Below the pieces are notes generated by a model. That model ran no database searches. It saw nothing but the letters and a program-made list of their open reading frames with translations, and was not told the origin of the DNA. A DNA stretch of 41,374 nucleotides, taken from contig CAYHYZ010000005.1 in the NCBI GenBank assembly GCA_964360995.1, positions 1 through 41,374 on the forward strand, read 5' to 3'. Shown here in pieces: positions 6,961 through 41,000 of this stretch (position 1 is its first letter; each line of letters starts with the position of its first letter). Position numbers and translations under genes: made by a program. The DNA comes from an uncultured Candidatus Saccharibacteria bacterium (lineage in GTDB: Bacteria > Patescibacteriota > Minisyncoccia > Ryanbacterales > HO2-45-13).

Positions 6961-7677
6961 CTACATAATCTGCCCCCCAAGGCCTTCTATCCACCCCATA
7001 ATACGGTGAAATAACTGTGTATTGTTCACCCGGATTTGGATTGTTCCATAAGGAAGCCTCGCGTGTGGCCGTTTGTGGCGACTAGAAAGACTAACCCCAT
7101 AATAAAACTTTCCAAAATTTTGAGCGGGTAGTTGGATTATTTTTTGCCAATATTGTAATACTAAGCTTTCATTCATGTGCTCATATATTCGTACGTCGGC
7201 ACGGATATGCTCATTTTCTACTTCACATATTTCGCGTAAAAATCTCATAAACATTGCAACTAGAAGTGGATCGCTGTTGGTAAGCGCGACAGAATGATAT
7301 GTCCGCTCTTTGCCCAGTCGGACGTGTGGTCGTTTGTATCCTTCAGCCCAGTACAGCGCCGTGCCAATATATTTCAATTCTGCCGCAGACAACCGCTTAA
7401 TCTCCTTAGCTGCTCTGGCCCTTCCAGTCCGCATGCGTAAAAGCGCATCGTGAGTCTGCTTTTTATTCCTCTTTACTATTCCGTTGAGAGTGCCCGTGTA
7501 GGCTTTTTTGCGGAGAATATTCTGTGCTTTTTCAGATAAGATGGCGCCAGAAAACCATGTAGAAAGTGTGCTTTTAGATATACCAAGCTGCTTACCTATT
7601 TCTGAATACGAATACCCTTTTAATCTTAGCGCTAAAGCTTTGTGTTTGTCTGGTCGCATTACTTTAAAGTATAGCAC
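6961..7677 (-). CDS. HTH + LAGLIDADG-like homing-endonuclease-family protein (free-standing)
   Basis: N-terminal HTH (GYSYSEIGKQLGISKSTLSTW) followed by IGTALYWAEGYK...VALTNSDPLLVAMFMRFLREI, which resembles a single LAGLIDADG motif block with an acidic residue before Gly. Assignment is by motif only. Confidence 0.5.
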   Translation of the reverse strand: MLYFKVMRPDKHKALALRLKGYSYSEIGKQLGISKSTLSTWFSGAILSEKAQNILRKKAYTGTLNGIVKRNKKQTHDALLRMRTGRARAAKEIKRLSAAELKYIGTALYWAEGYKRPHVRLGKERTYHSVALTNSDPLLVAMFMRFLREICEVENEHIRADVRIYEHMNESLVLQYWQKIIQLPAQNFGKFYYGVSLSSRHKRPHARLPYGTIQIRVNNTQLFHRIMGWIEGLGGQIM

Positions 7678-7732
7678 GCCTGTTCAATATAACTGAGAAT
7701 ATGGTTGTGTCTATTCTCTTTTTTTATTTCTT

Positions 7733-7741
7733 TGATATACT
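7733..7741 (+). promoter_or_regulatory. extended -10 promoter element for tRNA-Phe
   Basis: TGATATACT (TGnTAtAcT) ends 10 nt before the first base of the mature tRNA at 7752. Confidence 0.4.
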
Positions 7742-7751
7742 GCACTCCATT

Positions 7752-8036
7752 GCCGAGGTAGCTCAGTGGTAGAGCGCATGCCTAAATCTTTGGGCCACGG
7801 CGTAGTAATACGCAGTGCAAATCGGGTGAATTCGGGGAAAACTCAATATTTTGAACAACCCCGAGCCAAGCCAGGCACTTTCATAAAGTGCTCGGAAGGT
7901 GTAGAGACTATCCTGTAAAGGAGTACTCTCCGAACGGAGGGGAAGCGCCCGACACCCTACTCGCAAGAGGGGTGATGATATAGTCCGACTCTTTTGGAAG
8001 AGCATGGCGTCGCGAGTTCAATTCTCGCCCTCGGCA
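7752..8036 (+). tRNA. tRNA-Phe(GAA), split by a group I intron (exons 7752-7783 and 7997-8036)
   Basis: Joined exons give a 72-nt cloverleaf: GCCGAGG/CCTCGGC acceptor, GCTC-AGTGGTA-GAGC D arm, CATGC/GCATG anticodon stem, loop CU-GAA-GA, GCGAG-TTCAATT-CTCGC T arm, discriminator A. CCA is not encoded. Confidence 0.85.
7784..7996 (+). ncRNA. group I self-splicing intron (IC3-like), no internal ORF
   Basis: The 5' exon ends in U33, which can pair as GCCU/GGGC (P1, U.G at the splice site). The last intron base is G (omega-G, 7996). The core strings CCGAGCCAAGC and GAAGGUGUAGAGACUA...UAGUC (P7 pairing) match my recollection of the Azoarcus/cyanobacterial tRNA introns. Confidence 0.85.
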
Positions 8037-8230
8037 CACGACAACCCTATAATCCCGGTAAGCCGAGATTATAGGGTTTCGTTTGTGGCGAGGAGAGCGA
8101 GCAACCTGCATTGCTCGCGACGAGAGTTGAAGGCCGGAGTATCCCCGCGAAGCGGGGCGCGAGGCGGGGTCGCAACCGAGCGCGATCACAAGCGAGAGTT
8201 GTGACCAATTGAGCCCTCGACACACGATAA
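8037..8230 (+). other. GC-rich structured element ending in a decayed copy of the tRNA-Phe 3' end
   Basis: Contains a perfect 12-bp hairpin (8043-8054/8068-8079), an 8-bp hairpin gcgagcaa/ttgctcgc, CCCCGC-GAA-GCGGGG, and GGTCGCAAC/GTTGTGACC, which needs a G.U pair only on the plus strand. The end gccctcgacacacgataa (8212-8230) repeats gccctcggcacacgacaa (8026-8044) at 16/18. Confidence 0.5.
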
Positions 8231-8231
8231 T

Positions 8232-8269
8232 AAAAAAAGGGGGTCAGCAGTTGCTGTGCCCCCTTTGTT
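8232..8269 (-). terminator. intrinsic terminator for the 8294-8614 gene
   Basis: GGGGG...CCCCC-closed hairpin (8239-8263). On the minus strand it is followed by T7 (plus-strand A-run 8232-8238). Confidence 0.8.
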
Positions 8270-8293
8270 AGCCACTCATGGTTCCCTCCTCCG

Positions 8294-8614
8294 CTAGCCG
8301 AGTTGTGCGTGTGTCACTGCTACGCGACATCGATCACAGGCATCGATGTCGATGAACAATATATTTCCAACCTCGCGAAATGCGTGCGGCTGTCCGTGCG
8401 GACAACGGAATCGTCCGTAGACGAGACCGGTGCCTCGCATACCATTATGCGCAATCGCAACGTCAGAAACACGAGTTCTGCAGTGTCCACATGCGAGTTG
8501 TACGATCACACCCATCTGCGTGCTACACGGTGTAAATGTTACTCCGTTCGGCACGCCTGTGTGACCACACTTCCACGAAAGAATGAGTTTCGTGGGCTCA
8601 CTCGTCACTAGCAT
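8294..8614 (-). CDS. Cys/His-rich small protein (putative zinc-binding), unknown family
   Basis: 106 aa with WKCGH, CGHC, CPHG and CDRC motifs. G+C-rich. Has no SD of its own; its ATG is embedded in the stop region of an SD-led 15-codon upstream ORF. Confidence 0.55.
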   Translation of the reverse strand: MLVTSEPTKLILSWKCGHTGVPNGVTFTPCSTQMGVIVQLACGHCRTRVSDVAIAHNGMRGTGLVYGRFRCPHGQPHAFREVGNILFIDIDACDRCRVAVTHAQLG

Positions 8615-8655
8615 GAGTCAAAAGTACATGAGCGGCAGCTGTACTGCTCTGCCAT
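8608..8655 (-). CDS. 15-codon Cys-rich leader ORF (MAEQYSCRSCTFDSC)
   Basis: AAAGGAGGT lies 6 nt upstream of ATG 8655. The stop TAG (8610-8608) overlaps the ATG (8614-8612) of the downstream ORF in another frame. Confidence 0.3.
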   Translation of the reverse strand: MAEQYSCRSCTFDSC

Positions 8656-8772
8656 AGAGCACCTCCTTTTTGGAAGATTGTCGAAAGAACGGTACTTAGG
8701 TAGCTAGCCAGATTTGCAACCTATTGTCAACCGAGCGCCCCATGCGGCCTGACCGGCATATATCATGCTCGG

Positions 8773-9042
8773 TCAATCGGGAAAGAACCCCCACGTCACC
8801 GCCTCATAAAAACACTTTCGCTCGCGCACCTGAAGCACAATGACTTCCCCAACACGAGGGACTCTACGCTCCTTCTCCACATTAAAGACGAGAGAACCAT
8901 CGTGGTTATTACACGACCGCCCCACAACGATCGGAACTCGAACCTTCCTGCCATTGAGAACAGCAAGAAAATACCCAGCACGGCGACATTCCTTGCGATC
9001 AACAACCTCTGCGAGTCCCACAAGGCACCCTTCATGTTGCAT
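8773..9042 (-). CDS. hypothetical small protein (89 aa)
   Basis: ORF 8773-9060 trimmed to ATG 9042 (MQHEGCLVGL...), which is preceded by AAGGAGGGCGTT. G+C-rich; no recognisable family. Confidence 0.55.
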   Translation of the reverse strand: MQHEGCLVGLAEVVDRKECRRAGYFLAVLNGRKVRVPIVVGRSCNNHDGSLVFNVEKERRVPRVGEVIVLQVRERKCFYEAVTWGFFPD

Positions 9043-9067
9043 AACGCCCTCCTTTGGCATTCAGTTT

Positions 9068-9107
9068 TCAAAGAACGAAACAGCCCTGCACAGGTGGTGC
9101 AGGGCTG
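9068..9107 (-). terminator. intrinsic terminator downstream of the minus-strand tRNA cluster
   Basis: Perfect 11-bp stem cagccctgcac/gtgcagggctg (9081-9091/9097-9107). On the minus strand it is followed by TTTCGTTCTTT. Confidence 0.65.
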
Positions 9108-9243
9108 GCTGGTATCCGAGAATTATTTCCTAGACACGAGTAAAACCTCCACCACGGGACGTGGTGAGAAGGCAGAGGAAATTCATTGCTTGCGCGCGAA
9201 ACAGCATATGTATATATAATAATTCCTCCGCACAAATATATTT

Positions 9244-9378
9244 GTGGGCGATGTAGGACTCGAACCTACGACCTTCGCTGTGTATAATATTGAACCGTCG
9301 CGATGCTGATGTTACTTCGTAACACCGCTCCGGCGTAATGTTGCACATTACGTACCCTACCAACTTCGCTAATCACTA
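9244..9378 (-). pseudogene. decayed tandem copy of tRNA-Val (intact 3' half, degenerate 5' half with inserted hairpins)
   Basis: 9244-9284 is identical over 41 nt to 9396-9436 (anticodon TAC through the acceptor 3' strand). The upstream part GTGATTAGCGAAGTTGGTAGGGT only resembles the acceptor/D arm, the acceptor pairs at 5/7, and about 70 nt of hairpins (CGTAATGT-GCA-ACATTACG; TGTTAC-GAA-GTAACA) are inserted. Confidence 0.6.
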
Positions 9379-9393
9379 AAATAAAATGCACCC

Positions 9394-9469
9394 TGGTGGG
9401 CGATGTAGGACTCGAACCTACGACCTTCGCTGTGTAAAAGCGCTGCTCTACCAGCTGAGCTAATCGCCC
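9394..9469 (-). tRNA. tRNA-Val(UAC), CCA encoded
   Basis: The reverse complement reads GGGCGAT TA GCTC AGCTGGTA GAGC A GCGCT TT-TAC-AC AGCGA AGGTC GTAGG TTCGAGT CCTAC ATCGCCC A CCA. Confidence 0.92.
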
Positions 9470-9475
9470 GAAACG

Positions 9476-9529
9476 TGTCCACCCTACCATCCGCCAACTG
9501 GCGGAGAGCTAATCGCCCACCAGGGTGCA
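9476..9529 (-). repeat. tRNA-Val 5'-end fragment plus the arm of an 18-nt inverted repeat
   Basis: On the minus strand TGCACCCTGGT-GGGCGATTAGCTC lies 39 nt upstream of the real tRNA. The 13-nt GGGCGATTAGCTC duplicates the tRNA 5' end. 9512-9529 is the exact reverse complement of 9387-9404 (tRNA 3' strand + CCA + trailer). Confidence 0.7.
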
Positions 9530-9670
9530 CTCGATCACTGATTTATACCAGAAACCAAAAAAAAATTCTATATAAGGTATTGTGGTCACGCGTATTGCAT
9601 GCGCCGCCACGCTCGCAATCGCGCGACCCCGGCTCGTGGTTTTGGTTGTTACCAAAACATCACTCCGCCT

Positions 9671-9720
9671 GACACAGTACACAAAAAAATATCGCAGGAT
9701 GTTTTTTTGTGTACTGTGTC
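9671..9720 (-). terminator. 19-bp perfect hairpin abutting the tRNA-Arg 3' end
   Basis: gacacagtacacaaaaaaa (9671-9689) pairs with tttttttgtgtactgtgtc (9702-9720) across a 12-nt loop. It overlaps the last 4 nt of tRNA-Arg. Confidence 0.5.
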
Positions 9721-9788
9721 CCCGGCAGGAATCGAACCTGCACCACCTCCTTCGGAGGGAGATATTGTATCCATTCAACTACAGGGAC
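9717..9788 (-). tRNA. tRNA-Arg(CCG)
   Basis: The reverse complement reads GTCCCTG TA GTTG AATGGATA CAAT A TCTCC CT-CCG-AA GGAGG TGGT GCAGG TTCGATT CCTGC CGGGGAC A. CCA is not encoded. Confidence 0.9.
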
Positions 9789-9833
9789 GTCTGTGATTTT
9801 CTACAAGCTAAAAGCTGTCAGCTCCAAGCTGTT

Positions 9834-10352
9834 CTATGTATGGAGATCTGCAACGACAAACGCGCCGTACGCATCGGGCTTGATGACTGGCTCAAACCCA
9901 TATCCTTTTACCATTCCGCTGACACCATCCACGAGCTCCCGCGTGGGACCTTGCGTGCCGATATCTAAGTGAATGTGCTGAAATGTAATACGCTTGTCCC
10001 ATACAATCTCATCTCCAAACTGCTCGCGCAACACCGAGCGTAACTCCTGAGCGAGCGTGATAGACCGCATAGCTTCCTTCCAAATACGATCGCGCATGGT
10101 CATAACGGAGCGCTCCTCCGTGCGTGTATAAAAATATATTCCACCATTTCCTACTCTGCGAAACACCACCGATGTAACGAATTGAACGTCGCGCTCTCCG
10201 GCGCGTGAATCAGTGCCTATCACAATCTCATAGTCACGTTCGGGATCACGCTCCATGTACGCACGCATCGCATCCAACATTGACGTAACCGAAAAACGCT
10301 CACCATATGAGTTTATAAAATTCAGATCATTAGATAAGTGTTTGTTGGACAT
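9834..10352 (-). CDS. YkuK-like (DUF458) RNase H-fold protein
   Basis: 172 aa. The YEIVIGTDSRAGERDVQFVTSVVFRRVGNGGIYFY and FQHIHLDIG blocks resemble the YkuK family pattern, recalled from memory. Confidence 0.55.
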   Translation of the reverse strand: MSNKHLSNDLNFINSYGERFSVTSMLDAMRAYMERDPERDYEIVIGTDSRAGERDVQFVTSVVFRRVGNGGIYFYTRTEERSVMTMRDRIWKEAMRSITLAQELRSVLREQFGDEIVWDKRITFQHIHLDIGTQGPTRELVDGVSGMVKGYGFEPVIKPDAYGAFVVADLHT

Positions 10353-30761: not shown

Positions 30762-31020
30762 CTCCTCCGGTGCGGCGCCGTATCTCTTGATCGATGTGTG
30801 TTTTTTGTTTTGTGAGTATGTGCCGCTCCCCTCCTGATAGTCCCCGTATTACCACGCAACCTTTCTGTAGTGTAATCACCCGAGACTCCATAGAAATGGA
30901 AATTTTTTTTTCTTGAAAGATATTTGTCAGTGCTTGGGAAATAAATACTGGATCAGACCCTTGTACGCGCGCAAGGGTGCTTTTATATTTTCTAAAATAC
31001 ATCTCAAACGACTGAAACAT
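30736..31020 (-). CDS. DUF721/DciA-like small protein downstream of dnaN
   Basis: 94 aa. Its ATG overlaps the dnaN stop (TAATG). The pattern VITLQKGCVVIRGLSGGERHILTKQKTHIDQEIRRRTGGVIVEV fits the DUF721 beta-alpha layout. Assignment is by position and pattern. Confidence 0.45.
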   Translation of the reverse strand: MFQSFEMYFRKYKSTLARVQGSDPVFISQALTNIFQEKKISISMESRVITLQKGCVVIRGLSGGERHILTKQKTHIDQEIRRRTGGVIVEVRLG

Positions 31021-32132
31021 TATTCTCGAATACCACGCATTGGCATAATAAGGTGTCGGTGTGTTCCGGTGCTATTTTTCATAAGCACCGCGTCTTTTCC
31101 TTTATTTGCCCCAATAAACACCTCCTGCTCAGTGAATGTTTGTAGAGCATCAGAAAGATATTTCCAATTCAATGTAATGTTCACCCCTTCACCAGTAATA
31201 TGCGCTGGGAGCACCGCGTGGTATTGGCCCACCTCCTGACTCTCTGATGTGAGAGTGATTCCTTCTCCAACTTTTAGTGATAAATACACATCATGTAGTT
31301 TTCCGGAAAATAGTTTTGCTTGTTTAATATGTTGAAATAATTTTTGCCTATCCACCACACACTCCGTGGTAAATTGTTTTGGGATTATCTCCTCATACGC
31401 GGGGAATGTCCCATCGATGAGTCGGGAATAAATTGTGGTATCTTTTGATCGTATAATCACGCCTTGTGGTGAGAAATGGAGATCAATCATTTCATCTGTG
31501 GTGTCTCTAAAAATTCTTACACACTCCTCTACCACCCCAACAGGGATCATAAATTGCTGTGTGCGCTCTGTGGTAGTGAATTCCCCTGGAGCAATACGCA
31601 CCTCTGAAAGGCGAAAACTGTCGGTAGATACACATGTTAAATCTTGTCGCACACGAAACAATACCGATCCCAACTCCTGTCGAATATTAAATGGGGAGGC
31701 AGATACAATCACACGGCCCATTGCATCAATAAATAATGATCGGTGCACGGAAATCACCGCTACATCTCGTTGTACAGGAAATGGTGGAAATTCGTCTGCT
31801 GATAGTGCTTGAAATTTTGTTTGTTGATTATTCACATCAATTGAGAGTTGGTGCGCACTCACACCAATAATCAACATCTCTGCATTTTCAATGTTTAGCA
31901 AAAAAGATGAAAATACTTTCGCTGGGATTGCCACTGATCCATTCTTTCCACTTGGACAGGAAAATTTTGTCTCTACACCAATTTCAAGATTTGTTGCCGC
32001 AACTGTTACTATCCCACCACTATAAGTTACTAAAATAGAATTTAAAATTGGGACTGCTGGATTTTTCCCAACAATACGCTCAACAGAGCTTACAGATTTT
32101 TTCAGAAGTTCGGCGGGGCATTCGAATTGCAT
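31020..32132 (-). CDS. dnaN: DNA polymerase III beta sliding clamp
   Basis: 370 aa, MQFECPAELLKKSVSSVERIVGKNPAVPILNSILV..., with three-domain length and position directly downstream of dnaA. Confidence 0.93.
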   Translation of the reverse strand: MQFECPAELLKKSVSSVERIVGKNPAVPILNSILVTYSGGIVTVAATNLEIGVETKFSCPSGKNGSVAIPAKVFSSFLLNIENAEMLIIGVSAHQLSIDVNNQQTKFQALSADEFPPFPVQRDVAVISVHRSLFIDAMGRVIVSASPFNIRQELGSVLFRVRQDLTCVSTDSFRLSEVRIAPGEFTTTERTQQFMIPVGVVEECVRIFRDTTDEMIDLHFSPQGVIIRSKDTTIYSRLIDGTFPAYEEIIPKQFTTECVVDRQKLFQHIKQAKLFSGKLHDVYLSLKVGEGITLTSESQEVGQYHAVLPAHITGEGVNITLNWKYLSDALQTFTEQEVFIGANKGKDAVLMKNSTGTHRHLIMPMRGIRE

Positions 32133-32317
32133 AGTAATAATATAATTATTCTTTATTAAATACTTATTACTATTATTAGCTGCGTGCGCATGTGGGGAAG
32201 TGTGTAATATTATTGCGCTGCAATGGAATTTTCATCTTTAAATAATAGGTATGGTACGGATAAGGTGTGGATGAATGTGGGAAGAATTTACTAGGAGTGT
32301 GTTGTTAGGTGATTTTT
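32133..32317. other. candidate oriC segment (AT-rich unwinding region + DnaA-box-like 9-mers)
   Basis: An almost pure A/T stretch spans 32134-32180. Boxes: TGTGGATGA (32266-32274, 1 mismatch), TGTGGGGAA (32191-32199, 2 mismatches), and TTATCCGTA on the minus strand (32254-32262, 2 mismatches). Classic dnaA-dnaN intergenic location. Confidence 0.6.
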
Positions 32318-33694
32318 CTAAGAAGTTTTATACAGTTTCTCCCGGATGAGTCGTATTTCTTCCACAAGTTTTCCATTCTTTTTTAAGTCAGTGGTGATCT
32401 TATCATGCGCATGTAATGCGGTAGTGTGGTCTCTTCCACCAAGCTTTTGTCCGATATACGGATATGATCCATGAAAATCTTCACGTAATAAATACATTGC
32501 GATTTGGCGTGGTTTTACCACTTCCCTCTTTCTACTTCGCGCAAATAAATCCTTTTCTTCAATACCAAAAAATTCAGCCACAGTCTTGAGAATTTGAGAG
32601 GTGGTCACTACCCGCTGGGCTTGCATATTTAATTGCTCCAGAGTCTGTTTTGCTTCATCTATTGTGAGAGGTTGAGAGCGGATGCGTGTTTTTGCAATGA
32701 GTATATTTAACGCTCCCTCTAATTCACGAATGTTTTGTTGAATTAACGAAGCGATAAATTCCAATACTTCATCTGGTGGTACGTAATGCTTCTCAATTGC
32801 CTTTGCTTTTAAGATTGCAAGTCGAGACTCATACTCTGGTTGCCCAATATCTACAATAAGCCCCGCCTCAAAACGAGAACGGAGGCGCGCCTCAAGATTT
32901 GGGATGATTTGTGGGGGCTTATCTGATGAAAATACAATTTGTTTCCCAGACTCATAGAGTACATTAAATGTATGAAAAAACTCCTCCTCCGTTTTATTTT
33001 TTCCTGCAATAAATTGAATATCATCAATAATAAGGAGGTCAACCGCGCGATATTTTTCTTTAAAAGCTCCGAGTGGTTCACGATTTTGAATGAGCGTGAT
33101 GAGCTCATTCATGAATTTTTCAGAGGTGAGATATAAAATTCGGTAATTCGGATGTATTTTCTTTACCTCATTTCCAATTGCTTGGAGGAGATGGGTTTTT
33201 CCAAGTCCTACCCCACCATACACAAAGAAAGGGTTGTAGAGAGTTCCCATGCTCTTCGTGATAGAGAGGGCTGCGGCGTGCGCCAATTCATTAAACGAGC
33301 CAACGATAAAACTATCGAAAGTATATTTGGGATTTAAATTTGTTTCCCGATCGACCGAAAACTCCTTAAATTCCAACTGTTCGTGCCGCTCCTCGATTGG
33401 TTGGTCGATTTTTTTCTGTAAACGCTGATTGTGTAGTAGCGAGCTAATAGTGTAGTGCACTGCACGCACCGCATCTGTTTGATCTCGGAGCGCCTTGACA
33501 ATTGATCGATGATATTTTCTTTCTAACCACTCTTTAGCGAATGCATTGGGTACTGCGATGAGCGCGGTGCCGTCTTGGATGCCTTGTAAAGTGGTGTTTT
33601 GAAACCACGTTGCGAAATTTGCTTTAGATGTTTCTAATTCCATCTGAGTCAGAACTTTCTGCCACAGTTCTTGATGATTGATGGGTTGCTGCAT
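32318..33694 (-). CDS. dnaA: chromosomal replication initiator DnaA
   Basis: Walker A GGVGLGKTHLLQAIG, Walker B LLIIDDIQF, and the domain IV DNA-binding helix-turn-helix VKPRQIAMYLLRE...GGRDHTTALHA. Confidence 0.97.
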   Translation of the reverse strand: MQQPINHQELWQKVLTQMELETSKANFATWFQNTTLQGIQDGTALIAVPNAFAKEWLERKYHRSIVKALRDQTDAVRAVHYTISSLLHNQRLQKKIDQPIEERHEQLEFKEFSVDRETNLNPKYTFDSFIVGSFNELAHAAALSITKSMGTLYNPFFVYGGVGLGKTHLLQAIGNEVKKIHPNYRILYLTSEKFMNELITLIQNREPLGAFKEKYRAVDLLIIDDIQFIAGKNKTEEEFFHTFNVLYESGKQIVFSSDKPPQIIPNLEARLRSRFEAGLIVDIGQPEYESRLAILKAKAIEKHYVPPDEVLEFIASLIQQNIRELEGALNILIAKTRIRSQPLTIDEAKQTLEQLNMQAQRVVTTSQILKTVAEFFGIEEKDLFARSRKREVVKPRQIAMYLLREDFHGSYPYIGQKLGGRDHTTALHAHDKITTDLKKNGKLVEEIRLIREKLYKTS

Positions 33695-33783
33695 AGGTGG
33701 GTGTAGTTATGTTTTACTCCAGTTCCTGTATAGTGTGCAACAACGCACGCCACAACGCAAAAAACCACTTTACCCGCTAAGTG

Positions 33784-33813
33784 TTTACAAGGTGTGTATG
33801 ACATGTGTATAAT
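33784..33813 (+). promoter_or_regulatory. sigma70-type promoter of the rpmH operon
   Basis: TTTACA (33784-33789), 18-nt spacer, TATAAT (33808-33813), 14 nt before the rpmH ATG. Confidence 0.6.
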
Positions 33814-33827
33814 GATTTTTACTAGTT

Positions 33828-33962
33828 ATGTCAGTCACCTACCAACCAAAAAAACGAAAACGAAGTCGTTCTCACGGCTTTTTAAAGCGCAGTCGGACCA
33901 CGAGCGGTATTAATGTGATCAAGCGCCGCAGACAGAAAGGACGAAAACGCCTTACCGTTTAA
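33828..33962 (+). CDS. rpmH: 50S ribosomal protein L34
   Basis: Translated by hand: [44 protein letters not shown]. This matches the bL34 consensus (TxQPxxxKRxRxHGF...RRRxKGRxxLT). Below the ORF-track length cut-off. Confidence 0.92.
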
Positions 33963-33972
33963 CAACTATTGA

Positions 33973-34311
33973 ATGCTGCCGCGTACGCAGCGACTTCGGA
34001 GAACTGAAGACATTCAAAGAGCCATGACATCCGGGGTGCGGAGTCACGGTAATTTTCTTATAGGCCACATCTTAAGGACAACGCGCCCCGATGCGCGATT
34101 TTGTGTGGTCGTGTCTGCGCAAATTTCAAAACGTGCGGTGGTGAGAAATAAAAATCGCAGAAGAATTTCTGAAGCACTGCGAACAAAAATTGTTCCAAAT
34201 GTTCAATCAGGGTATGATGTCGTTATTCGACTCAAAAAGGATGCTAGCGACATTTCCCACCCAGAACTTCTCGCTGACCTACGGCGCTGTCTTGTAAAAA
34301 TCATTCCATGA
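33973..34311 (+). CDS. rnpA: ribonuclease P protein component
   Basis: LPRTQRLRRTEDI..., RNR-like motif KRAVVRNKNRRRISEAL. Conserved rpmH-rnpA-yidC order. Confidence 0.9.
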   Translation: MLPRTQRLRRTEDIQRAMTSGVRSHGNFLIGHILRTTRPDARFCVVVSAQISKRAVVRNKNRRRISEALRTKIVPNVQSGYDVVIRLKKDASDISHPELLADLRRCLVKIIP

Positions 34312-35096
34312 AATATCTCTATTCCACGATCGTCTATCAACCCCTTCTCAACGCCATCATCGCGCTCACTACTATTGTCCCCGGGCATAGCCTAGGATGG
34401 GCGGTCATCATTATGACTATATGTGTGCGGATGGTACTTTTTCCACTACAGCACCGTGCAACCAAGGTGCAGGAAGTGTTAAAGCATTTAGAACCCCATC
34501 TGAGTGAGTTAAAGGAGAAACACAAGGATGATAGAGAGGAGCTTGCGCGAAAAACACTTGAGCTCTATCGAAAGCATGGCATTAATCCATTCGCGTCACT
34601 TTTGCTGTTTGTGGTACAACTCCCTATTCTTATTGCGCTATTTAAAATTTTTCAACACGGACTCATTGGTGATATTTCAGGACAACTCTATAGTTTTGTG
34701 CCTCATCCGGAGGTGCTGAATATGATATTTTTTGGTATTGATCTTTCCCGTCCATTTATTCCGCTCGCGATTATTGCGGCAGTGACACAATTTGTGCAGG
34801 TGAAGCTTATGCTCACCAAACAGAAGAAAAAAGAGGGGGCAACCCCACAAACTGGATTTGGCGCAGAGTTTCAACGTGCGATGCAAGTACAAATGCCATA
34901 TATTATTCCATTGATGGTTGGTTTTATTGGCGCAAAATTTGCCGCAGCACTCCCACTGTATTGGACAGTGATGAATGTGCTTGCTATAGTGCACGAAGGA
35001 ATCGTGCGTAAACGCGCAGCCTCCATGAGTTATGAACCAGGAAGCGAACAACACATCACTCACAGCGGCGGCGCGGCACCTCGCAATGCTGCTTAA
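34308..35096 (+). CDS. yidC: membrane protein insertase YidC (short Oxa1-like form)
   Basis: ATGA overlap with rnpA. Conserved Arg-containing TM1 (VRMVLFPLQHR), coiled-coil hairpin KEKHKDDREELARKTLELYRKHGINPF, five TM helices. Confidence 0.9.
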   Translation: MKYLYSTIVYQPLLNAIIALTTIVPGHSLGWAVIIMTICVRMVLFPLQHRATKVQEVLKHLEPHLSELKEKHKDDREELARKTLELYRKHGINPFASLLLFVVQLPILIALFKIFQHGLIGDISGQLYSFVPHPEVLNMIFFGIDLSRPFIPLAIIAAVTQFVQVKLMLTKQKKKEGATPQTGFGAEFQRAMQVQMPYIIPLMVGFIGAKFAAALPLYWTVMNVLAIVHEGIVRKRAASMSYEPGSEQHITHSGGAAPRNAA

Positions 35097-35502
35097 ATTA
35101 ATGGGCATTGCCGGAACTATTGAAGAAGGAGTAGTCGGAGACACTTTGACCATTACTATTCGCACCCCAGAACCGGGTGTGCTTATTGGTGAAGATGGCG
35201 CGCGCTTGCAGGCATTAAATCACGTCATTCGCCGCATGATCGAGCACGAATTGGGGCATGAGCGATCACAGATTCTGGTAGATGTGAATGATTACCGCCG
35301 GAAGCAATTTGAAGAGCTTCGCGATCAAGCGCGCATGGGAGCGCAGCGAGTGCGATATTTTAAAAAAGAAGTGACGCTCTCACCCATGACTGCGTTTGAG
35401 CGGCGCATCGTACACGTTGCGCTACAAGAGTATCCCGATATTACCACCGAGTCACACGGGGAAGGACCAACGAGATGTGTGGTGATTCGCCCCTACCCGT
35501 AA
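35086..35502 (+). CDS. jag: Jag/KhpB-family RNA-binding protein (KH + R3H)
   Basis: R3H block MTAFERRIVHVALQEYPDITTESHGEGPTRCVVIRP, with the KH-like GVLIGEDGARLQALNHVIR. Start set at ATG 35086; the longest ORF starts at 35032. Confidence 0.85.
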   Translation: MLLKLMGIAGTIEEGVVGDTLTITIRTPEPGVLIGEDGARLQALNHVIRRMIEHELGHERSQILVDVNDYRRKQFEELRDQARMGAQRVRYFKKEVTLSPMTAFERRIVHVALQEYPDITTESHGEGPTRCVVIRPYP

Positions 35503-35510
35503 GGTGCGCA

Positions 35511-36674
35511 CTATTTTTGTAGTACAAGACTCCACAACGAGGAGTCGTTTTTATTTACAAATAGGAGCGCGCTGTCATCTGGAGCGACGGCGAGTTCAAT
35601 TGCGTCATAATTTCCTTCGGAGACGATGCGTACTTCCCCCGTGCGGAAGTTCCAGCGCGTTATTCGATCCTCAAAGTGGTGTTCACCACGTAGCCACGCG
35701 TCATAGATTTGTTTTGTGATTGATGACGGAACGCCGCAATATATAATTGATGTGTCCGTGCGTGCCCAGACGCATTTTTCAGGGTACGTTGTAAATGGCG
35801 CGATAGTGATGCGGTCTTTTGTAGAGGTTGCCTTCGTGTCTAATAGGTAGAGCGTAGGCATGTCGGAGATAGTCTCTGCCGCACTGTAGAGCACATATCT
35901 CCCCGATGAGTGTTCGAGTATTGAAAGTTGATACGATGCGGGTGTAAGGGGGGTATATGAGCCACCTGAGAGCACCCACGCAAGACTTTCTACAAATGCT
36001 GATCCAGGATTTCGCACTATGGGGCGCGCCACAACATCCCATGATAAGAGTAGTTGCGACTGTGGGTGCGAAGCGAGTGTCGTTGGCTTAGTGCCATTAG
36101 GGAGGGCGGTCGCGATCACCGATCCATCGTCAGTTTGTTTTGCAAACGCGACTCGGAGCCCATCAGGAGAGACTGCAGCGAATGCCGTGGTTTCCGGGAG
36201 CCTTGTTACCTGTGAGCTCGATGAAGTAAAAGAAATATGTGCGAAGTCTGGAGTATTATTTTGTGTAGAAAATGTGACGAGCGCAGCAGAGCCGTTGTTC
36301 GCCCAATCAACAACATATGCATTATCTAGGCGTGTATCTGAAAGCGCGATCGCTACCCCTCCCGTGAGCGGTCTTTCATATACAAGACCGCTCGCGCGTT
36401 CAATGTATCTCACGGTATTACTATTTGGCGCGAACATCCCACTAATGACATTTTTAGCTATCTCCCGGGATGCCTCTTCTCCTTCTGTGATAATTGTTCC
36501 TTCAGGCGTAAGGTCGGTTCCGGGAGTTTCTTGGCGTGGGTCACTATTTGGCAATTCCCCGCCGATCAACTCACCACCACTACGCTGATTGAGATACCAC
36601 ACAAGCGCAATAATACCTATAAGTAATAGGACAAATGCGATCACGACATACAGTTTTTTTCGAGAAGAATCCAT
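35511..36674 (-). CDS. membrane-anchored PD40/TolB-like beta-propeller protein (last gene of the T4SS-like operon)
   Basis: N-terminal TM anchor LYVVIAFVLLLIGIIALVWYL. PD40-type repeats (AVSPDGLRVAFAKQTDDGS, VAPDDSALLFVNKNDSSLW). Confidence 0.6.
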   Translation of the reverse strand: MDSSRKKLYVVIAFVLLLIGIIALVWYLNQRSGGELIGGELPNSDPRQETPGTDLTPEGTIITEGEEASREIAKNVISGMFAPNSNTVRYIERASGLVYERPLTGGVAIALSDTRLDNAYVVDWANNGSAALVTFSTQNNTPDFAHISFTSSSSQVTRLPETTAFAAVSPDGLRVAFAKQTDDGSVIATALPNGTKPTTLASHPQSQLLLSWDVVARPIVRNPGSAFVESLAWVLSGGSYTPLTPASYQLSILEHSSGRYVLYSAAETISDMPTLYLLDTKATSTKDRITIAPFTTYPEKCVWARTDTSIIYCGVPSSITKQIYDAWLRGEHHFEDRITRWNFRTGEVRIVSEGNYDAIELAVAPDDSALLFVNKNDSSLWSLVLQK

Positions 36675-36683
36675 AGATATTTA

Positions 36684-37142
36684 TTATGGTGTTTGACCAG
36701 CCCCGCCATCGTTAGTTCCAGAAGATCCAGTCCCTGGGGTCTTTATAGGATCAATTTTTAAATTTAATTTTAAGAATGAATTTCCACCAAGTGTGGTTAA
36801 AATCAGCACCGCGCCAATAATGATCAGAAATCCATACGCAACCCTTGTCATACGACTCTTCGCGGCCCCAGCGGCGCTTTGATTTCCTCCAGCAGTAATG
36901 TACTGCACGCCGCTGTATACGAGCATCACAAGTCCAAATCCCAGCGCTGCTGATAGTAATGACACATATGCAATTGTGAGATATTGCTCGAGGCTACTAA
37001 TTTCCCTCGAGGTTGACCCAGGAAGTGGCTCCGCAAGCTGATATGGAGAGGGGAAGGTTTGTGCGTTTACAAAAGATGAAAGTAATACCATTGAGCAGGC
37101 GGTGGCGAGAATGAGTAGTGGCGCGAGGCGGAGGTGTTTCAT
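36684..37142 (-). CDS. VirB2/TrbC-type T4SS pilin-like protein
   Basis: Signal peptide (LLILATACSMVLLSSFVNA), then two TM helices joined by the loop YSGVQYITAGGNQSAAGAAKSRMTRVAYGF. This is the pattern of the T4SS_pilin family common in CPR and Gram-positive loci. Gly/Thr-rich tail. Confidence 0.65.
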   Translation of the reverse strand: MKHLRLAPLLILATACSMVLLSSFVNAQTFPSPYQLAEPLPGSTSREISSLEQYLTIAYVSLLSAALGFGLVMLVYSGVQYITAGGNQSAAGAAKSRMTRVAYGFLIIIGAVLILTTLGGNSFLKLNLKIDPIKTPGTGSSGTNDGGAGQTP

Positions 37143-37144
37143 AT

Positions 37145-38149
37145 TTATTCTACTATCAATTTTAATTGCGAGCTTGCGCGCTCAAACACATTGTGTGTAT
37201 TTAAGAAAGACGCAGTAATGTTATAGAAAGTTGGGGTTGTAGGCATGCTGAGTTGTATTGTATTTCCCGCCCCCCCGGTATTTGGGATCGCTTTGCCGCT
37301 ACTATCCCACGAATATTCAAGAACGCTTTCAGTGCTAACATTATATGGAATCGCAATGAGACCAATTTTTTCCCCAGCACGCATTGAAAGGGATGAGATA
37401 ACCGATTTTCGTGCAATAGAGTGTGATTGATTGCTGTAGACGGTAATACGAGATTTTTCTGACCCCACATTAATGCTACTCTGGGCGGAATATGTGCCTC
37501 GTGGGTCGCTAATTGAAACTTGCACGCGCACAGTTTCCGCAGGAGATTTTGGCAATCTAAATACATATGTGCTCGCGCCAATTCCTGAAAGCGCCACCGC
37601 GTCAGATCCATCAACTTTCCATGTATATAATAGACGTTTCGGGCTACTGTTTTGATATGTTCCGGTGAGCGTTGGGAATGCAGTAATGCGAACCACCCCT
37701 CGTGGAGCCGGCAACTTTCGTCCCATATACCAAAAAGGTGCCGTTGTATCAGCTTCCAGAATGATATGTATCTCCGACGGCCTAATCGTTGTTGTCCCTT
37801 CGATGACAACTACTCCAGCCATTTTTCCAACAACGCGAATTCGTGTAGAAGATCCAACTCCCCCAAGGGTAACCGTTGCAGTGCGCTTCCCATAGCCCGA
37901 AGTAATCATTTTGTCATTTGCATACCATGTAATATCCATAGCATTGAGATCAGCGCTATAGGATTTTGCTTGAAGAGAAACCTCCGTATTAGCAGCCGGC
38001 TGATCCGGCGTTGTAATTATTTGTATCTGTCCCACTAGTAGACCAGTAGGATTAGTAAATTGTGCGTAAGTAAGGCGCGCCCCAAATATCACCGTTGCGC
38101 AAAGAAAAACAATAATGAGCAAACGTAAGTTATTATTGATTATTTGCAT
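37145..38149 (-). CDS. secreted protein with three tandem ~95-aa beta-sandwich-like repeats
   Basis: ORF trimmed to ATG 38149 (MQIINNNLRLLIIVFLCATVIFGARLTYA signal). Repeat anchors DITWYANDK, LYTWKVDGS and LEYSWDSSGK occur at regular spacing. Confidence 0.6.
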   Translation of the reverse strand: MQIINNNLRLLIIVFLCATVIFGARLTYAQFTNPTGLLVGQIQIITTPDQPAANTEVSLQAKSYSADLNAMDITWYANDKMITSGYGKRTATVTLGGVGSSTRIRVVGKMAGVVVIEGTTTIRPSEIHIILEADTTAPFWYMGRKLPAPRGVVRITAFPTLTGTYQNSSPKRLLYTWKVDGSDAVALSGIGASTYVFRLPKSPAETVRVQVSISDPRGTYSAQSSINVGSEKSRITVYSNQSHSIARKSVISSLSMRAGEKIGLIAIPYNVSTESVLEYSWDSSGKAIPNTGGAGNTIQLSMPTTPTFYNITASFLNTHNVFERASSQLKLIVE

Positions 38150-39935: not shown

Positions 39936-39936
39936 A

Positions 39937-40578: not shown

Positions 40579-40579
40579 G

Positions 40580-40999: not shown

Positions 41000-41000
41000 A

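What the first reader, a model, noticed from the sequence alone, without database searches (positions are those of the whole stretch)
7752..8036. Group I (IC3-like) intron inserted in tRNA-Phe(GAA) between U33 and G34
The exons 7752-7783 and 7997-8036 join into a canonical 72-nt tRNA with anticodon loop CU-GAA-GA. The 213 nt between them have three group I hallmarks:
- P1 pairing GCCU/GGGC with a U.G pair at the 5' splice site;
- a terminal omega-G;
- core segments (CCGAGCCAAGC, GAAGGUGUAGAGACUA ... UAGUC) that I recognise from the Azoarcus tRNA-Ile and cyanobacterial tRNA-Leu introns.

The bacterial tRNA group I introns I know of sit in Leu(UAA), fMet/Ile(CAU) and Arg(CCU), and splice after an anticodon U. 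Here the host is Phe and the insertion point is one position 5' of the anticodon. The intron has no ORF.
Basis: partly seen in the sequence, partly recalled or inferred. Interest (0 to 1): 0.75.

Follow-up and report, generated by a model that had tools for sequence, protein, structure and literature searches.

The report
Self-splicing intron in tRNA-Phe gene
The window really does hold a tRNA-Phe gene split by a 213-base self-splicing group I intron, but this intron type was already catalogued in 2020 and is common in the tiny groundwater bacteria (Patescibacteria) the window comes from; the less expected thing is an uncharacterised DNA-binding gene that almost always sits next to it.

Summary
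Window 7752-8036 (+) is a tRNA-Phe(GAA) gene interrupted between U33 and G34 by a 213-nt group I intron (7784-7996). Rfam RF00028 scores it 69.2 bits (E 1e-15). It has a U.G pair at the 5' splice site, a terminal omega-G and a P10 guide pairing.

The novelty claim is not supported. Williams (2020, bioRxiv 10.1101/2020.01.27.920355) lists this class as "Phe.2Ug". The classical tRNA-fMet intron occupies the same position.

A genome scan found 16 more copies, all in Patescibacteria. Their alignment supports the fold: 95.7% of cells pair and 36 of 65 pairs show compensatory changes.

The core sequence resembles IC3. The architecture does not: two hairpins (P7.1/P7.2) lie between P7 and P3', and there is no internal P9.

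Three further results:
- A 232-aa HTH protein gene (6961-7659, -) lies next to an intron-bearing tRNA-Phe in 7 of 7 protein-first look-ups and in 8 of 17 intron-first loci. It is next to none of 51 intron-less loci.
- The interrupted gene is 285/285 identical in a syntenic relative whose flanks are about 76% identical.
- Intron-less alleles exist.

Together these suggest a mobile intron-plus-gene module. No nuclease domain could be identified in the protein.

The parts
7733..7741 (+). Possible extended -10 promoter element TGaTATACT, 10 nt upstream of the tRNA 5' end
   Evidence: Read directly from the sequence. It is conserved in the relative L080. The consensus scan found no full -35/-10 pair on this strand. 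Inferred, not shown.
7752..7783 (+). 5' exon of tRNA-Phe(GAA): acceptor 5' strand, D arm, anticodon-stem 5' strand, C32 and U33
   Evidence: ARAGORN on the joined exons and on the native DNA with introns allowed.
7784..7996 (+). Group I intron, 213 nt, of the Phe.2Ug class; no ORF
   Evidence: RF00028 at 69.2 bits, E 1.2e-15. Best match to the Williams seed Mba55.Phe.2Ug. Covariation across 16 homologues.
7780..7795 (+). P1 hairpin: GCCUAA (7780-7785) pairs with UUGGGC (7790-7795); U7783.G7792 marks the 5' splice site
   Evidence: The U.G pair is invariant in 16/16. Pair 7780/7795 covaries (CG in 11, GC in 5).
7787..7795 (+). Internal guide sequence UCUUUGGGC. GGGC binds the 5' exon (P1). UCUUU can bind the 3' exon GAAGA 7997-8001 (P10).
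   Evidence: Complementarity read from the sequence. Both partners are invariant in the family, so covariation cannot test P10.
7796..7817 (+). P2 hairpin with GUAA tetraloop
   Evidence: All 6 pairs have compensatory changes (helix 3). The loop is GNRA in almost all members.
7822..7828 (+). P3 5' strand UCGGGUG, pairing with CGCCCGA 7946-7952
   Evidence: 7 pairs, 3 with compensatory changes, 100% paired (helix 4).
7832..7864 (+). P4 (7832-7837 / 7859-7864) enclosing P5 (7843-7846 / 7851-7854)
   Evidence: helices 5 and 6. All 5 pairs of P5 covary.
7865..7900 (+). P6 (7865-7867 / 7898-7900) and P6a (7871-7881 / 7885-7895)
   Evidence: helices 7 and 8. All 7 pairs of P6a covary.
7906..7910 (+). 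P7 5' strand GACUA, pairing with UAGUC 7981-7985 (guanosine-binding helix, a pseudoknot with P3)
   Evidence: Invariant in 16/16 (helix 10). The strings are identical to those of the Azoarcus seed.
7911..7941 (+). Peripheral insertion: P7.1 (7911-7914 / 7919-7922, loop GUAA) and P7.2 (7926-7931 / 7936-7941, loop GAAC)
   Evidence: Minimum-free-energy fold. An insertion is present at this place in every family member and absent from the classical IC3 seeds.
7953..7974 (+). P8 hairpin with GCAA loop
   Evidence: 4 of 5 pairs covary (helix 13).
7989..8002 (+). Hairpin spanning the 3' splice site: intron tail CUCUU (7989-7993) pairs with 3' exon AAGAG (7998-8002). Omega-G 7996 lies in the loop.
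   Evidence: helix 14: CG in 11, GC in 3; 100% paired. It overlaps the P10 partner, so the two pairings are alternatives.
7997..8036 (+). 3' exon: G34 A35 A36, the rest of the anticodon arm, the T arm, the acceptor 3' strand and discriminator A. CCA is not encoded.
8043..8078 (+). 12-bp inverted repeat (AACCCUAUAAUC / GAUUAUAGGGUU) followed by a U-rich stretch; possible terminator
   Evidence: Read from the sequence. The scan did not call it because the loop is 12 nt. It is not conserved in L080. Inferred.
6961..7659 (-). 232-aa protein (P0001): N-terminal HTH, a long helix, then a 145-aa uncharacterised alpha/beta domain. The gene is divergent from the tRNA, 92 nt away. It is a recurrent neighbour of intron-bearing tRNA-Phe genes.
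   Evidence: Pfam HTH_23. At least 391 homologues. Adjacency found in 7/7 protein-first look-ups. Present at 8/17 intron-first loci against 0/51 intron-less loci, Fisher p = 3e-6.

Best explanation
Window 7752-8036 is the functional tRNA-Phe(GAA) gene of a groundwater Patescibacteria (CPR) bacterium. It is interrupted after the universal U33 by an ORF-less, self-splicing group I intron of the already described 'Phe.2Ug' class.

Inferred mechanism, following the standard group I pathway:
1. The internal guide sequence 7787-7795 pairs with the end of the 5' exon (GCCU/GGGC) and places U33 in a U.G wobble pair.
2. A free guanosine bound at P7 (GACUA/UAGUC) attacks after U7783.
3. Omega-G 7996 then takes the guanosine site. 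The guide's UCUUU aligns the 3' exon GAAGA (P10).
4. The exons are ligated to restore the loop CU-GAA-GA.

The core (P3-P8) is IC3-like in sequence. The periphery differs: P7.1 and P7.2 are added, and instead of an internal P9 the 10-nt intron tail pairs with the 3' exon across the splice site.

What is shown: the identity of the element, the fold with its covariation, and the family distribution. What is inferred: the splicing chemistry and expression.
For: - RF00028 full-length hit at 69.2 bits, E 1.2e-15.
- ARAGORN calls tRNA-Phe(gaa) i(33,213).
- Fifteen complete homologues from one scan of GTDB species representatives are all tRNA-Phe(GAA) with U-1, omega-G and the 3' exon GAAGAG. A sixteenth is cut by its contig end.
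- On the 16-sequence alignment, 95.7% of cells pair, against 32-51% when partners are slid. 36 of 65 pairs have compensatory changes, and no shuffle out of 500 reaches the observed values.
- The single-sequence fold recovers the cloverleaf arms plus P1-P8, z = -4.55.
- The best-matching published seed is Mba55.Phe.2Ug (paper read).
- In relatives the gene sits inside tRNA clusters (Leu-Val-Phe-Gly), and no second tRNA-Phe lies within about 8 kb.
- Complete CPR genomes are reported to need intron-bearing tRNAs to reach a full tRNA set (PMC8172020).
- The interrupted gene is 285/285 identical in a relative whose flanks are about 76% identical.
Against: - There is no experimental or RNA-level evidence of splicing for this or any Phe.2Ug intron in what I could read.
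- The window holds 41 kb of one genome, so a second, uninterrupted tRNA-Phe elsewhere cannot be excluded.
- P7, P10 and the U.G pair are invariant, so covariation says nothing about them.
- The tail/3'-exon hairpin competes with P10 and could be an inactive conformer.
- The lack of an internal P9 leaves open that a protein cofactor is needed for efficient folding.
Confidence: 0.9

Rival explanations
1. The intron and the neighbouring HTH-protein gene (6961-7659) form a mobile two-part module ('collaborative homing'). In this reading the protein is a free-standing, site-specific DNA endonuclease of an unrecognised family. It cuts intron-less tRNA-Phe genes at or near the anticodon region. Repair from an intron-bearing donor copies in the intron, and sometimes the gene. 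The intron protects the resident gene by splitting the target site. This adds to the self-splicing explanation rather than replacing it.
For: - Close homologues (53-79% identity) lie 8-134 nt from an intron-bearing tRNA-Phe in 7 of 7 protein-first look-ups.
- They are present at 8 of 17 intron-first loci and at 0 of 51 intron-less loci, p = 3e-6.
- Three different arrangements occur: upstream divergent, upstream co-directional and downstream co-directional. This is typical of an inserted selfish gene, not of an operon partner.
- All the expected states exist: intron only (L003, L008, L009, L016), intron plus gene, and empty sites that differ from the spliced tRNA at only 4 of 72 nt.
- The tRNA plus intron is 100% identical between two genomes whose flanks are about 76% identical. 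A comparator pair with the same protein divergence shows 94%.
- The wider superfamily (3025 cluster representatives) also sits beside tRNA genes.
- Precedents: T4 SegB inside a tRNA gene cluster (PMC2330249), and collaborative homing as cited in the bacterial group I intron review (PMC3984707).
Against: - No nuclease motif or fold was found. Pfam, NCBIfam, PHROGs and PDB sequence searches hit only the HTH.
- Foldseek on confident models (pLDDT 85) gives nothing significant. The best hit is an OmpA-like domain at E 0.015, TM 0.38.
- hhalign against I-CreI gives probability 0.1.
- Between the window and L080 the gene itself is only 79% identical, so the recent exchange did not carry the gene.
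- A distant family member lies beside an uninterrupted tRNA-Phe (L084). The link may therefore be to tRNA loci rather than to the intron.
Confidence: 0.3
2. The neighbouring HTH protein is a splicing cofactor (maturase or RNA chaperone), or a regulator of the interrupted tRNA gene. It would compensate for the missing P9 and keep tRNA-Phe supply adequate.
For: - The linkage to intron-bearing genes is tight.
- Protein identity and intron identity fall together across pairs.
- The window's intron lacks an internal P9.
- Proteins that aid group I splicing are well known (PMC3984707).
Against: - Several family introns, including P9-less ones (L003, L008, L009, L016), have no such gene within 1.3 kb or more. 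The protein cannot be generally required.
- The only recognisable domain is a DNA-type HTH.
- Superfamily members sit beside tRNAs that have no intron.
Confidence: 0.12
3. The interrupted gene is a dead copy. The intron no longer splices, and another tRNA-Phe gene serves translation.
For: Only 41 kb of the genome is visible. Default tRNA finders do not report the gene.
Against: - All catalytic-core strings and both splice-site nucleotides are intact and invariant in 16/16 members.
- Helices are maintained by compensatory changes.
- The exons form a perfect cloverleaf.
- The gene keeps its place in conserved tRNA clusters.
- It is identical over 285/285 nt in a diverged relative.
- CPR genomes are small and usually carry one gene per tRNA; this last point is my own knowledge.
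Confidence: 0.03

Closest known systems
Phe.2Ug group I introns (Williams 2020, bioRxiv 10.1101/2020.01.27.920355; seed Mba55.Phe.2Ug, identical to the intron on LBUA01000014.1, Parcubacteria GW2011_GWD2_38_12)
   Same: The host is tRNA-Phe(GAA) and the insertion point is after U33. U-1 and omega-G are the same, and P1 is almost identical (CCUAAAUCUUUGGG). The strings GGGUGAAUUCGGGGAAA, CCCGAGCC, GGUGUAGAGACUA, AGCGCCC and GAUGAKAUAGUCC are shared. Both have an insertion between P7 and P3'.
   Different: About 80% identity over aligned positions. The window has the two-hairpin form of the insertion (P7.1 and P7.2, as in L012, L013, L015, L016) where the seed has one long hairpin. P5, P6a and P8 differ. 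The window's 3' tail pairs with the 3' exon in a different register.
Classical IC3 tRNA introns (Azoarcus tRNA-Ile2 5Ug; cyanobacterial tRNA-Leu 3Ug, tRNA-fMet 2Ug; Agrobacterium-type tRNA-Arg 5Ug)
   Same: They sit in the anticodon loop, are small and have no ORF. J3/4-P4, P6 and J6/7-P7 are nearly identical (AAUUCGGGGAAA, CCGAGCCAAG, GGUGUAGAGACUA ... AUAGUCC). P2 carries a GNRA loop. The fMet intron is at the very same loop position.
   Different: These introns have 3 nt between P7 and P3', where the window has 35 nt forming P7.1 and P7.2. They have an internal P9 (and P9.0) hairpin, while the window has a 10-nt tail. The host tRNA differs, and so does the J8/7 string (GAUGAUAU against GAAGGSAU).
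Subgroup IA introns (phage T4 td type; the tmRNA T-loop introns in Williams' alignment)
   Same: Extra hairpins P7.1 and P7.2 lie between P7 and P3'. That this is a hallmark of subgroup IA is my own knowledge of Michel and Westhof 1990. The tmRNA seeds show such inserts.
   Different: Core sequence similarity to the tmRNA seed is the second lowest of the 16 seeds compared. The P3-P8 strings are of the IC3 type.
Collaborative homing pairs and free-standing homing endonucleases at tRNA loci (cyanophage psbA intron with F-CphI; T4 SegB in the tRNA gene cluster, PMC2330249; intron-encoded I-Ssp6803I, which targets the tRNA-fMet anticodon region, cited in PMC3984707)
   Same: An ORF-less intron has a recurrent neighbouring gene that encodes a DNA-binding protein. 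The gene's position and orientation vary. Intron-only, intron-plus-gene and empty-site states coexist. There is a sign of recent exchange.
   Different: Those proteins belong to recognised nuclease families (GIY-YIG, Endo VII-like, PD-(D/E)XK) and their cleavage has been demonstrated. Here no nuclease domain is recognisable and nothing has been tested.

Membership tests
Group I intron (Rfam RF00028) | Covariance-model score at or above the curated gathering score, over the full model | tested here: met
   69.2 bits against 50, model positions 1-253, E 1.2e-15. Homologues score 56-88 bits.
Group I intron (Rfam RF00028) | P1 with a U.G wobble pair at the 5' splice site, formed with an internal guide sequence | tested here: met
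   U7783.G7792 lies within GCCUAA/UUGGGC. UG in 16/16. The neighbouring pair covaries, CG in 11 and GC in 5.
Group I intron (Rfam RF00028) | Terminal omega-G before the 3' splice site | tested here: met
   G7996. A G precedes GAAGAG in all 15 complete homologues plus the window.
Group I intron (Rfam RF00028) | Conserved core helices P3-P8, including the P3/P7 pseudoknot, supported by covariation | tested here: met
   P2, P3, P4, P5, P6a and P8 have compensatory changes. 95.7% of cells pair, against at most 51% with slid partners. P6 and P7 are invariant, so they are consistent but uninformative.
Group I intron (Rfam RF00028) | Guanosine-dependent self-splicing | not testable with these tools
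   Needs in vitro transcription and splicing, or RNA data.
Phe.2Ug class (Williams 2020) | Host tRNA-Phe, intron between loop nucleotides 2 and 3 (U33|G34), U-1 and omega-G | tested here: met
   ARAGORN i(33,213), anticodon gaa. The nomenclature is defined.
Phe.2Ug class (Williams 2020) | Sequence closer to the class seed than to seeds of other classes | tested here: met
   Alignment score 220 to Mba55.Phe.2Ug. The next is 178 (Lys.2Ug), and Azoarcus scores 138.
Subgroup IC3 | IC3-type core strings in J3/4-P4, P6, J6/7-P7 and P7' | tested here: met
   Shared strings with the Aol6, Ncf2, Tpc1 and Rur1 seeds.
Subgroup IC3 | Compact architecture: P7 joined to P3' by a few nucleotides (no P7.1/P7.2) and an internal P9 hairpin | tested here: not met
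   35 nt with two hairpins at 7911-7941. Only 10 nt follow P7'. The IC3 seeds have 3 nt and a P9.
Mobile group I intron with an internal homing endonuclease gene | ORF for an endonuclease inside a peripheral loop | tested here: not met
   The intron is 213 nt with no ORF. Family introns are 206-286 nt.
Collaborative homing pair (ORF-less intron plus free-standing homing endonuclease) | Recurrent physical linkage of the gene with intron-bearing alleles, and absence from intron-less alleles | tested here: met
   7/7 protein-first look-ups. 8/17 against 0/51, p = 3e-6. Caveat: a distant paralogue lies beside an intron-less tRNA-Phe.
Collaborative homing pair (ORF-less intron plus free-standing homing endonuclease) | The protein carries a nuclease domain | tested here: inconclusive
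   No match to any known family by sequence, profile or fold. Invariant E, D, H, H, K and R residues exist but no motif could be assigned.
Collaborative homing pair (ORF-less intron plus free-standing homing endonuclease) | Cleavage of the intron-less allele, with the intron-bearing allele immune | not testable with these tools
   Needs a biochemical assay.
LAGLIDADG homing endonucleases | LAGLIDADG alpha-beta-beta-alpha-beta-beta-alpha fold and profile similarity | tested here: not met
   The motif LYWAEGYK prompted the idea. No LAGLIDADG structure appears among the listed Foldseek hits. 0 of 38 members hit a LAGLIDADG Pfam model. One distant member gives a faint hit at E 0.08.

The most novel reading that the evidence does not exclude
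The 232-aa HTH protein encoded beside the intron founds an unrecognised family of free-standing homing endonucleases, or other mobility factors, that target tRNA genes in Patescibacteria. Together with the ORF-less Phe.2Ug intron it would form a natural 'collaborative homing' system. That system would be caught in all its evolutionary states: empty site, intron only, intron plus gene in three arrangements, and gene beside an intron-less tRNA. The 285/285-nt identity of the interrupted gene between two genomes that are about 24% diverged would be the footprint of recent homing.
Probability: 0.3. Interest if true: 0.65.

Novelty: new member of a known kind. Interest (0 to 1): 0.3.

Why it matters
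The intron itself matters mainly for annotation. Standard tRNA finders skip the gene, so Patescibacteria genomes can look as if they lack tRNA-Phe. The class was published only in a preprint table, a figure and a seed alignment.

The Phe.2Ug family is widespread across Patescibacteria lineages (Saccharibacteria, Paceibacterota/Parcubacteria, Gracilibacteria, Doudnabacteria, Yanofskybacteria). It therefore offers a rich comparative set for a compact ribozyme that combines an IC3 core with IA-style P7.1/P7.2 and a splice-site-spanning terminal helix.

The linked HTH gene is the part that could lead somewhere new. How ORF-less introns spread, and how endonuclease genes and introns first come together, is an open question. 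This system offers hundreds of natural intron/gene pairs in different arrangements, with intron-less alleles available as test substrates. If the protein is a nuclease, it would be a new homing endonuclease family with a tRNA-gene target.

Tried and rejected
1. LAGLIDADG identity for the neighbouring protein, prompted by 'LYWAEGYK'. Rejected: hhalign probability 0.1, no LAGLIDADG structure among the Foldseek hits, and no Pfam hit in 38 members.
2. Other known families for the C-terminal domain. Pfam, NCBIfam, PHROGs, PDB sequence and profile searches, and Foldseek against PDB and BFVD found nothing beyond the HTH.
3. Phage carriage of the intron. The same pattern gave 0 hits in IMG/VR.
4. A second RNA element in 7000-10000. 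The permissive Rfam search found only the intron and tRNA-Val and tRNA-Arg.
5. The consensus promoter and terminator scan was uninformative. The promoter and terminator in the parts list are read by eye.
6. ARAGORN's calls of tRNA-Ser(aga) for L003 and tRNA-Phe(aaa) for L014 were mis-placed splice sites. Both are Phe(GAA) with U33|G34 junctions. Its 'intron' calls for tRNA-Tyr, tRNA-Asp, tRNA-Ile and tRNA-Gly in L071-L080 were treated as false positives.
7. The Azoarcus cryo-EM paper (PMC13168695) gave no hits for my search terms.
8. tblastn hits of P0145 and P0224 on intron or tRNA DNA are artefacts of gene calls that run across the RNA gene.
9. My genome-scan pattern fixed the P1 loop length. 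It therefore missed members with a loop one nucleotide longer (CCU|AAACUCUUUGGG). Sixteen hits is a lower bound, not a census.
Full report
**1. The observation**

- The two exons, 7752-7783 and 7997-8036, join into a 72-nt cloverleaf with anticodon loop CU-GAA-GA.
- ARAGORN calls the joined sequence tRNA-Phe(gaa). With introns allowed, it calls the native DNA tRNA-Phe(gaa) with a 213-nt intron at position 33.
- With default settings ARAGORN finds only tRNA-Val and tRNA-Arg in the window.
- Rfam's group I intron model matches 7774-8004 over its whole length at 69.2 bits (gathering score 50, E 1.2e-15). Nothing else in the window matches except the two tRNAs.
- U7783 pairs with G7792 inside the P1 hairpin GCCUAA/UUGGGC. 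G7996 is the terminal omega-G. The quoted core strings are present.

**2. Where the window comes from**

The window is bacterial chromosome around the replication origin. It encodes DnaA, DnaN, LeuRS, PolA, UvrB, PBP1, a PilB-like ATPase and a VirB4/TraG-like ATPase. The gene order on the matching contig L001 places the RNase P protein and YidC genes next to dnaA.

The DnaA protein matches exactly a contig from a 0.1-um-filtered groundwater sample of the Hainich well H52 (ENA ERZ1292617). Every relative of the intron found later is a Patescibacteria (CPR) genome.

**3. What is already known**

Williams (bioRxiv 10.1101/2020.01.27.920355) scanned 80,413 bacterial genomes and raised the number of tRNA group I intron types from 4 to 21. 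His nomenclature numbers the anticodon-loop positions.

- The classical fMet intron is 'fMet.2Ug', meaning after U33. That is the same position as here.
- His seed alignment contains 'Mba55.Phe.2Ug'. The intron of my locus L003 (LBUA01000014.1, Parcubacteria GW2011_GWD2_38_12) is contained exactly in that seed.
- That seed is the best match to the window's intron among 16 seeds: score 220, next 178, Azoarcus 138.
- Lui et al. (PMC8172020) also note that complete CPR genomes have tRNAs with group I introns.

Host and position are therefore not new.

**4. The family**

I ran one scan of GTDB species representatives. The pattern was anchored on CCU|A...GGG, GGTGAATTC and GTAGAGACTA.

- It gave 16 loci, all Patescibacteria MAGs: Saccharibacteria (6), Parcubacteria/Paceibacterota, Gracilibacteria, Doudnabacteria, Yanofskybacteria and three Hainich bins.
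- All 15 complete ones are tRNA-Phe(GAA) with U33|intron...G|GAAGAG. Intron lengths are 206-264 nt.
- Further members found later have a P1 loop one nucleotide longer, which this pattern missed. The family is therefore larger than 16.
- No copy was found in IMG/VR.
- In relatives the gene lies in tRNA clusters (Leu-Val-Phe-Gly), with no second tRNA-Phe nearby.

**5. The structure**

The 16-sequence alignment (A1) gives a consensus with P1, P2, P3, P4, P5, P6, P6a and P8. I added P7 as a pseudoknot.

- On that structure 95.7% of cells form standard pairs, against 32-51% when partners are slid by 1-3 columns.
- 36 of 65 pairs carry compensatory changes. No shuffle out of 500 reaches the observed values.
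- P7 (GACUA/UAGUC), P6 and the U.G pair never vary.
- The single-sequence fold of the precursor recovers the tRNA arms and the intron helices, z = -4.55.
- The guide sequence UCUUUGGGC (7787-7795) is complementary both to the 5' exon end (GCCU) and to the 3' exon start (GAAGA). These are the canonical P1 and P10. Both partners are invariant, so P10 is inferred.

Two features depart from classical IC3 introns.

- First, every member has a 25-45-nt insertion between the P7 5' strand and P3'. In the window it forms two hairpins, 7911-7922 (GUAA loop) and 7926-7941. The IC3 seeds have three nucleotides at that place. From my own knowledge, such P7.1/P7.2 elements are the hallmark of subgroup IA.
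- Second, only 10 nt follow P7' in the window, so there is no internal P9. Instead the intron tail pairs with 3'-exon nucleotides 35-39 across the splice site (7989-7993 with 7998-8002). In most relatives the pairing is with nucleotides 37-43. One position covaries, CG in 11 and GC in 3. This helix stacks on the outer anticodon stem and overlaps the P10 partner. It is either a P9 surrogate or a pre-catalytic alternative.

'IC3-like' is thus correct for the core sequence but not for the architecture.

**6. Intron-less alleles**

A metagenome scan used the 25-mer that spans the spliced junction. It found 51 uninterrupted tRNA-Phe genes with an identical anticodon arm. The closest (L037, L061, L064, L065) differ from the window's spliced tRNA at 4 of 72 positions, all in the T arm. 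The intron is therefore polymorphic among very similar tRNA-Phe genes.

**7. An unexpected neighbour**

The ORF immediately upstream and divergent (6961-7659, -) encodes a 232-aa protein, P0001.

*Linkage in intron-first loci.* Homologues at 40-60% identity lie next to the interrupted tRNA-Phe in seven of the sixteen GTDB loci, in three different arrangements.

*Linkage in protein-first look-ups.* The family has at least 391 members, all unnamed Patescibacteria proteins. I started from the protein rather than from the intron. All seven look-ups (P0034, P0103, P0059, P0110, P0073, P0062, P0002) returned a gene 8-134 nt from an intron-bearing tRNA-Phe. Rfam confirmed the introns at 56-88 bits.

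*Contrast with intron-less loci.*
- None of the 51 intron-less loci has a close homologue. This gives 8/17 against 0/51, Fisher p = 3e-6.
- One has a 32%-identical relative 1.4 kb away, between tRNA-Pro and tRNA-Gly.
- Four intron-bearing loci with adequate flanks lack the gene (L003, L008, L009, L016).

*The protein itself.* It has an N-terminal HTH (HTH_23-like), a long helix and a 145-aa alpha/beta domain. That domain carries invariant LYWAEGYK, H, NSDP and H residues.

*Identity of the C-terminal domain.*
- It matched nothing in Pfam, NCBIfam, PHROGs, PDB sequences, or Foldseek against PDB and BFVD. The best hit was an OmpA-like domain at E 0.015, TM 0.38.
- My LAGLIDADG guess was rejected.
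- A profile of the domain finds 3025 cluster representatives, some with two tandem copies.

*Context of distant members.* Four of the five distant members I looked up also lie beside tRNA genes that have no intron (the fifth, P0245 on L079, has no tRNA in its locus):
- tRNA-Gln in L078;
- tRNA-Val in L083;
- tRNA-Pro and tRNA-Gly in L031;
- in L084, an uninterrupted tRNA-Phe in the order Leu-Val-Phe-gene-Gly.

The superfamily is therefore tied to tRNA loci. Only the close subfamily is tied to the intron.

**8. A sign of recent exchange**

Locus L080 comes from the same well and is syntenic with the window (LeuRS, PrsW, HSP20, pilin, HTH gene, tRNA-Phe).

- Its interrupted tRNA-Phe is identical to the window's over all 285 nt.
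- The surrounding 4 kb is 75.7% identical, and the HTH protein is 79% identical.
- Identity per 50-nt bin is 62-90% upstream and drops to about 40% immediately downstream of the tRNA.
- A comparator pair with the same protein divergence (L071/L073, 78%) has 94% identity in tRNA plus intron.

With only one comparator this is suggestive rather than proven. It fits a recent gene conversion or homing event confined to the interrupted gene.

**9. Interpretation**

With about 0.9 confidence this is a working, self-splicing group I intron of the known Phe.2Ug class, in the tRNA-Phe gene of a groundwater Patescibacteria bacterium.

- The most interesting reading the data allow, at about 0.3, is that the neighbouring gene is a free-standing homing endonuclease or mobility factor of a new family. 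It would act with the ORF-less intron, as in collaborative homing and as T4 SegB acts at tRNA clusters (PMC3984707, PMC2330249).
- A splicing-cofactor or regulatory role is less likely, at about 0.12.
- A dead gene copy is very unlikely, at about 0.03.

**10. Verdict**

The intron is a new member of a known kind, of low intrinsic novelty. Interest rises modestly because of the conserved, uncharacterised partner gene and the evidence for recent exchange.

Noticed in passing
window 6961-7659 (-); loci L005-L007, L012, L013, L015, L017, L069-L077, L080-L082: An uncharacterised 232-aa HTH protein gene is a near-obligate neighbour of intron-bearing tRNA-Phe genes: 7/7 protein-first look-ups, and 8/17 against 0/51 loci. 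It occurs in three different arrangements. Its C-terminal 145-aa domain matches no known family or fold.
   Followed up: yes
window 7752-8036 against L080 2624-2908 (-): The interrupted tRNA-Phe gene is 285/285 nt identical in a syntenic relative from the same well. That relative's flanks are about 76% identical, and its sequence downstream of the tRNA cannot be aligned. This suggests recent gene conversion or homing.
   Followed up: partly
L078, L083, L084, L031: Distant members of the same protein superfamily (3025 cluster representatives, some with tandem domains) sit directly beside intron-less tRNA genes. One lies between an uninterrupted tRNA-Phe and tRNA-Gly in L084. L084 holds a second 232-aa ORF with no Pfam hit, between two other tRNAs (813-1511).
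   Followed up: partly
window 7989-8002; alignment A1 columns 309-320: A helix between the intron's 3' tail and the 3' exon spans the 3' splice site, with omega-G in the loop. It stacks on the outer anticodon stem and is mutually exclusive with P10. In most relatives the tail resembles the 3' end of the 5' exon (for example CAGCUUC against CAGCCCU).
   Followed up: partly
window 7752-8036: Default ARAGORN and the Rfam tRNA model at gathering score do not report this gene. Genomes of this group will appear to lack tRNA-Phe unless intron-aware tools are used.
   Followed up: yes
P0073 (L076), P0145, P0224 (L083), P0187 (L084): Public gene calls for this protein family are often extended at the N-terminus across the adjacent tRNA or intron (for example '...VVGSIPTLG...' is a translated T arm). 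This produces spurious protein-level matches to RNA genes.
   Followed up: partly
window 8080-8230: A G+C-rich stretch with several short hairpins (for example GAGCGAGCAA...UUGCUCGC and CCCCGCGAAGCGGGG) lies between the tRNA and the next ORF. It has no Rfam match and is not conserved in L080. A mechanical 105-aa minus-strand ORF there has no Pfam hit.
   Followed up: partly
window 31020-35100: A replication-origin neighbourhood. dnaN and dnaA are on the minus strand, and the lowest G+C of the window (0.41) falls at 32-34 kb. The order on contig L001 places the rnpA, yidC and R3H/KH genes beyond that. The cumulative GC skew has its minimum near there.
   Followed up: no
window 35511-41357 (-): A run of minus-strand genes includes a VirB4/TraG-like ATPase (38133-39935). 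It may be a type IV secretion or conjugation-like cluster at the window's end.
   Followed up: no
L071 1-653, L072 1-598, L073 1233-1877: Relatives carry other selfish elements close to the tRNA-Phe module: an intein with a faint LAGLIDADG_3 hit inside FtsH, and a free-standing 214-aa ORF with a faint LAGLIDADG_3 hit between rplS and a NUDIX gene.
   Followed up: no
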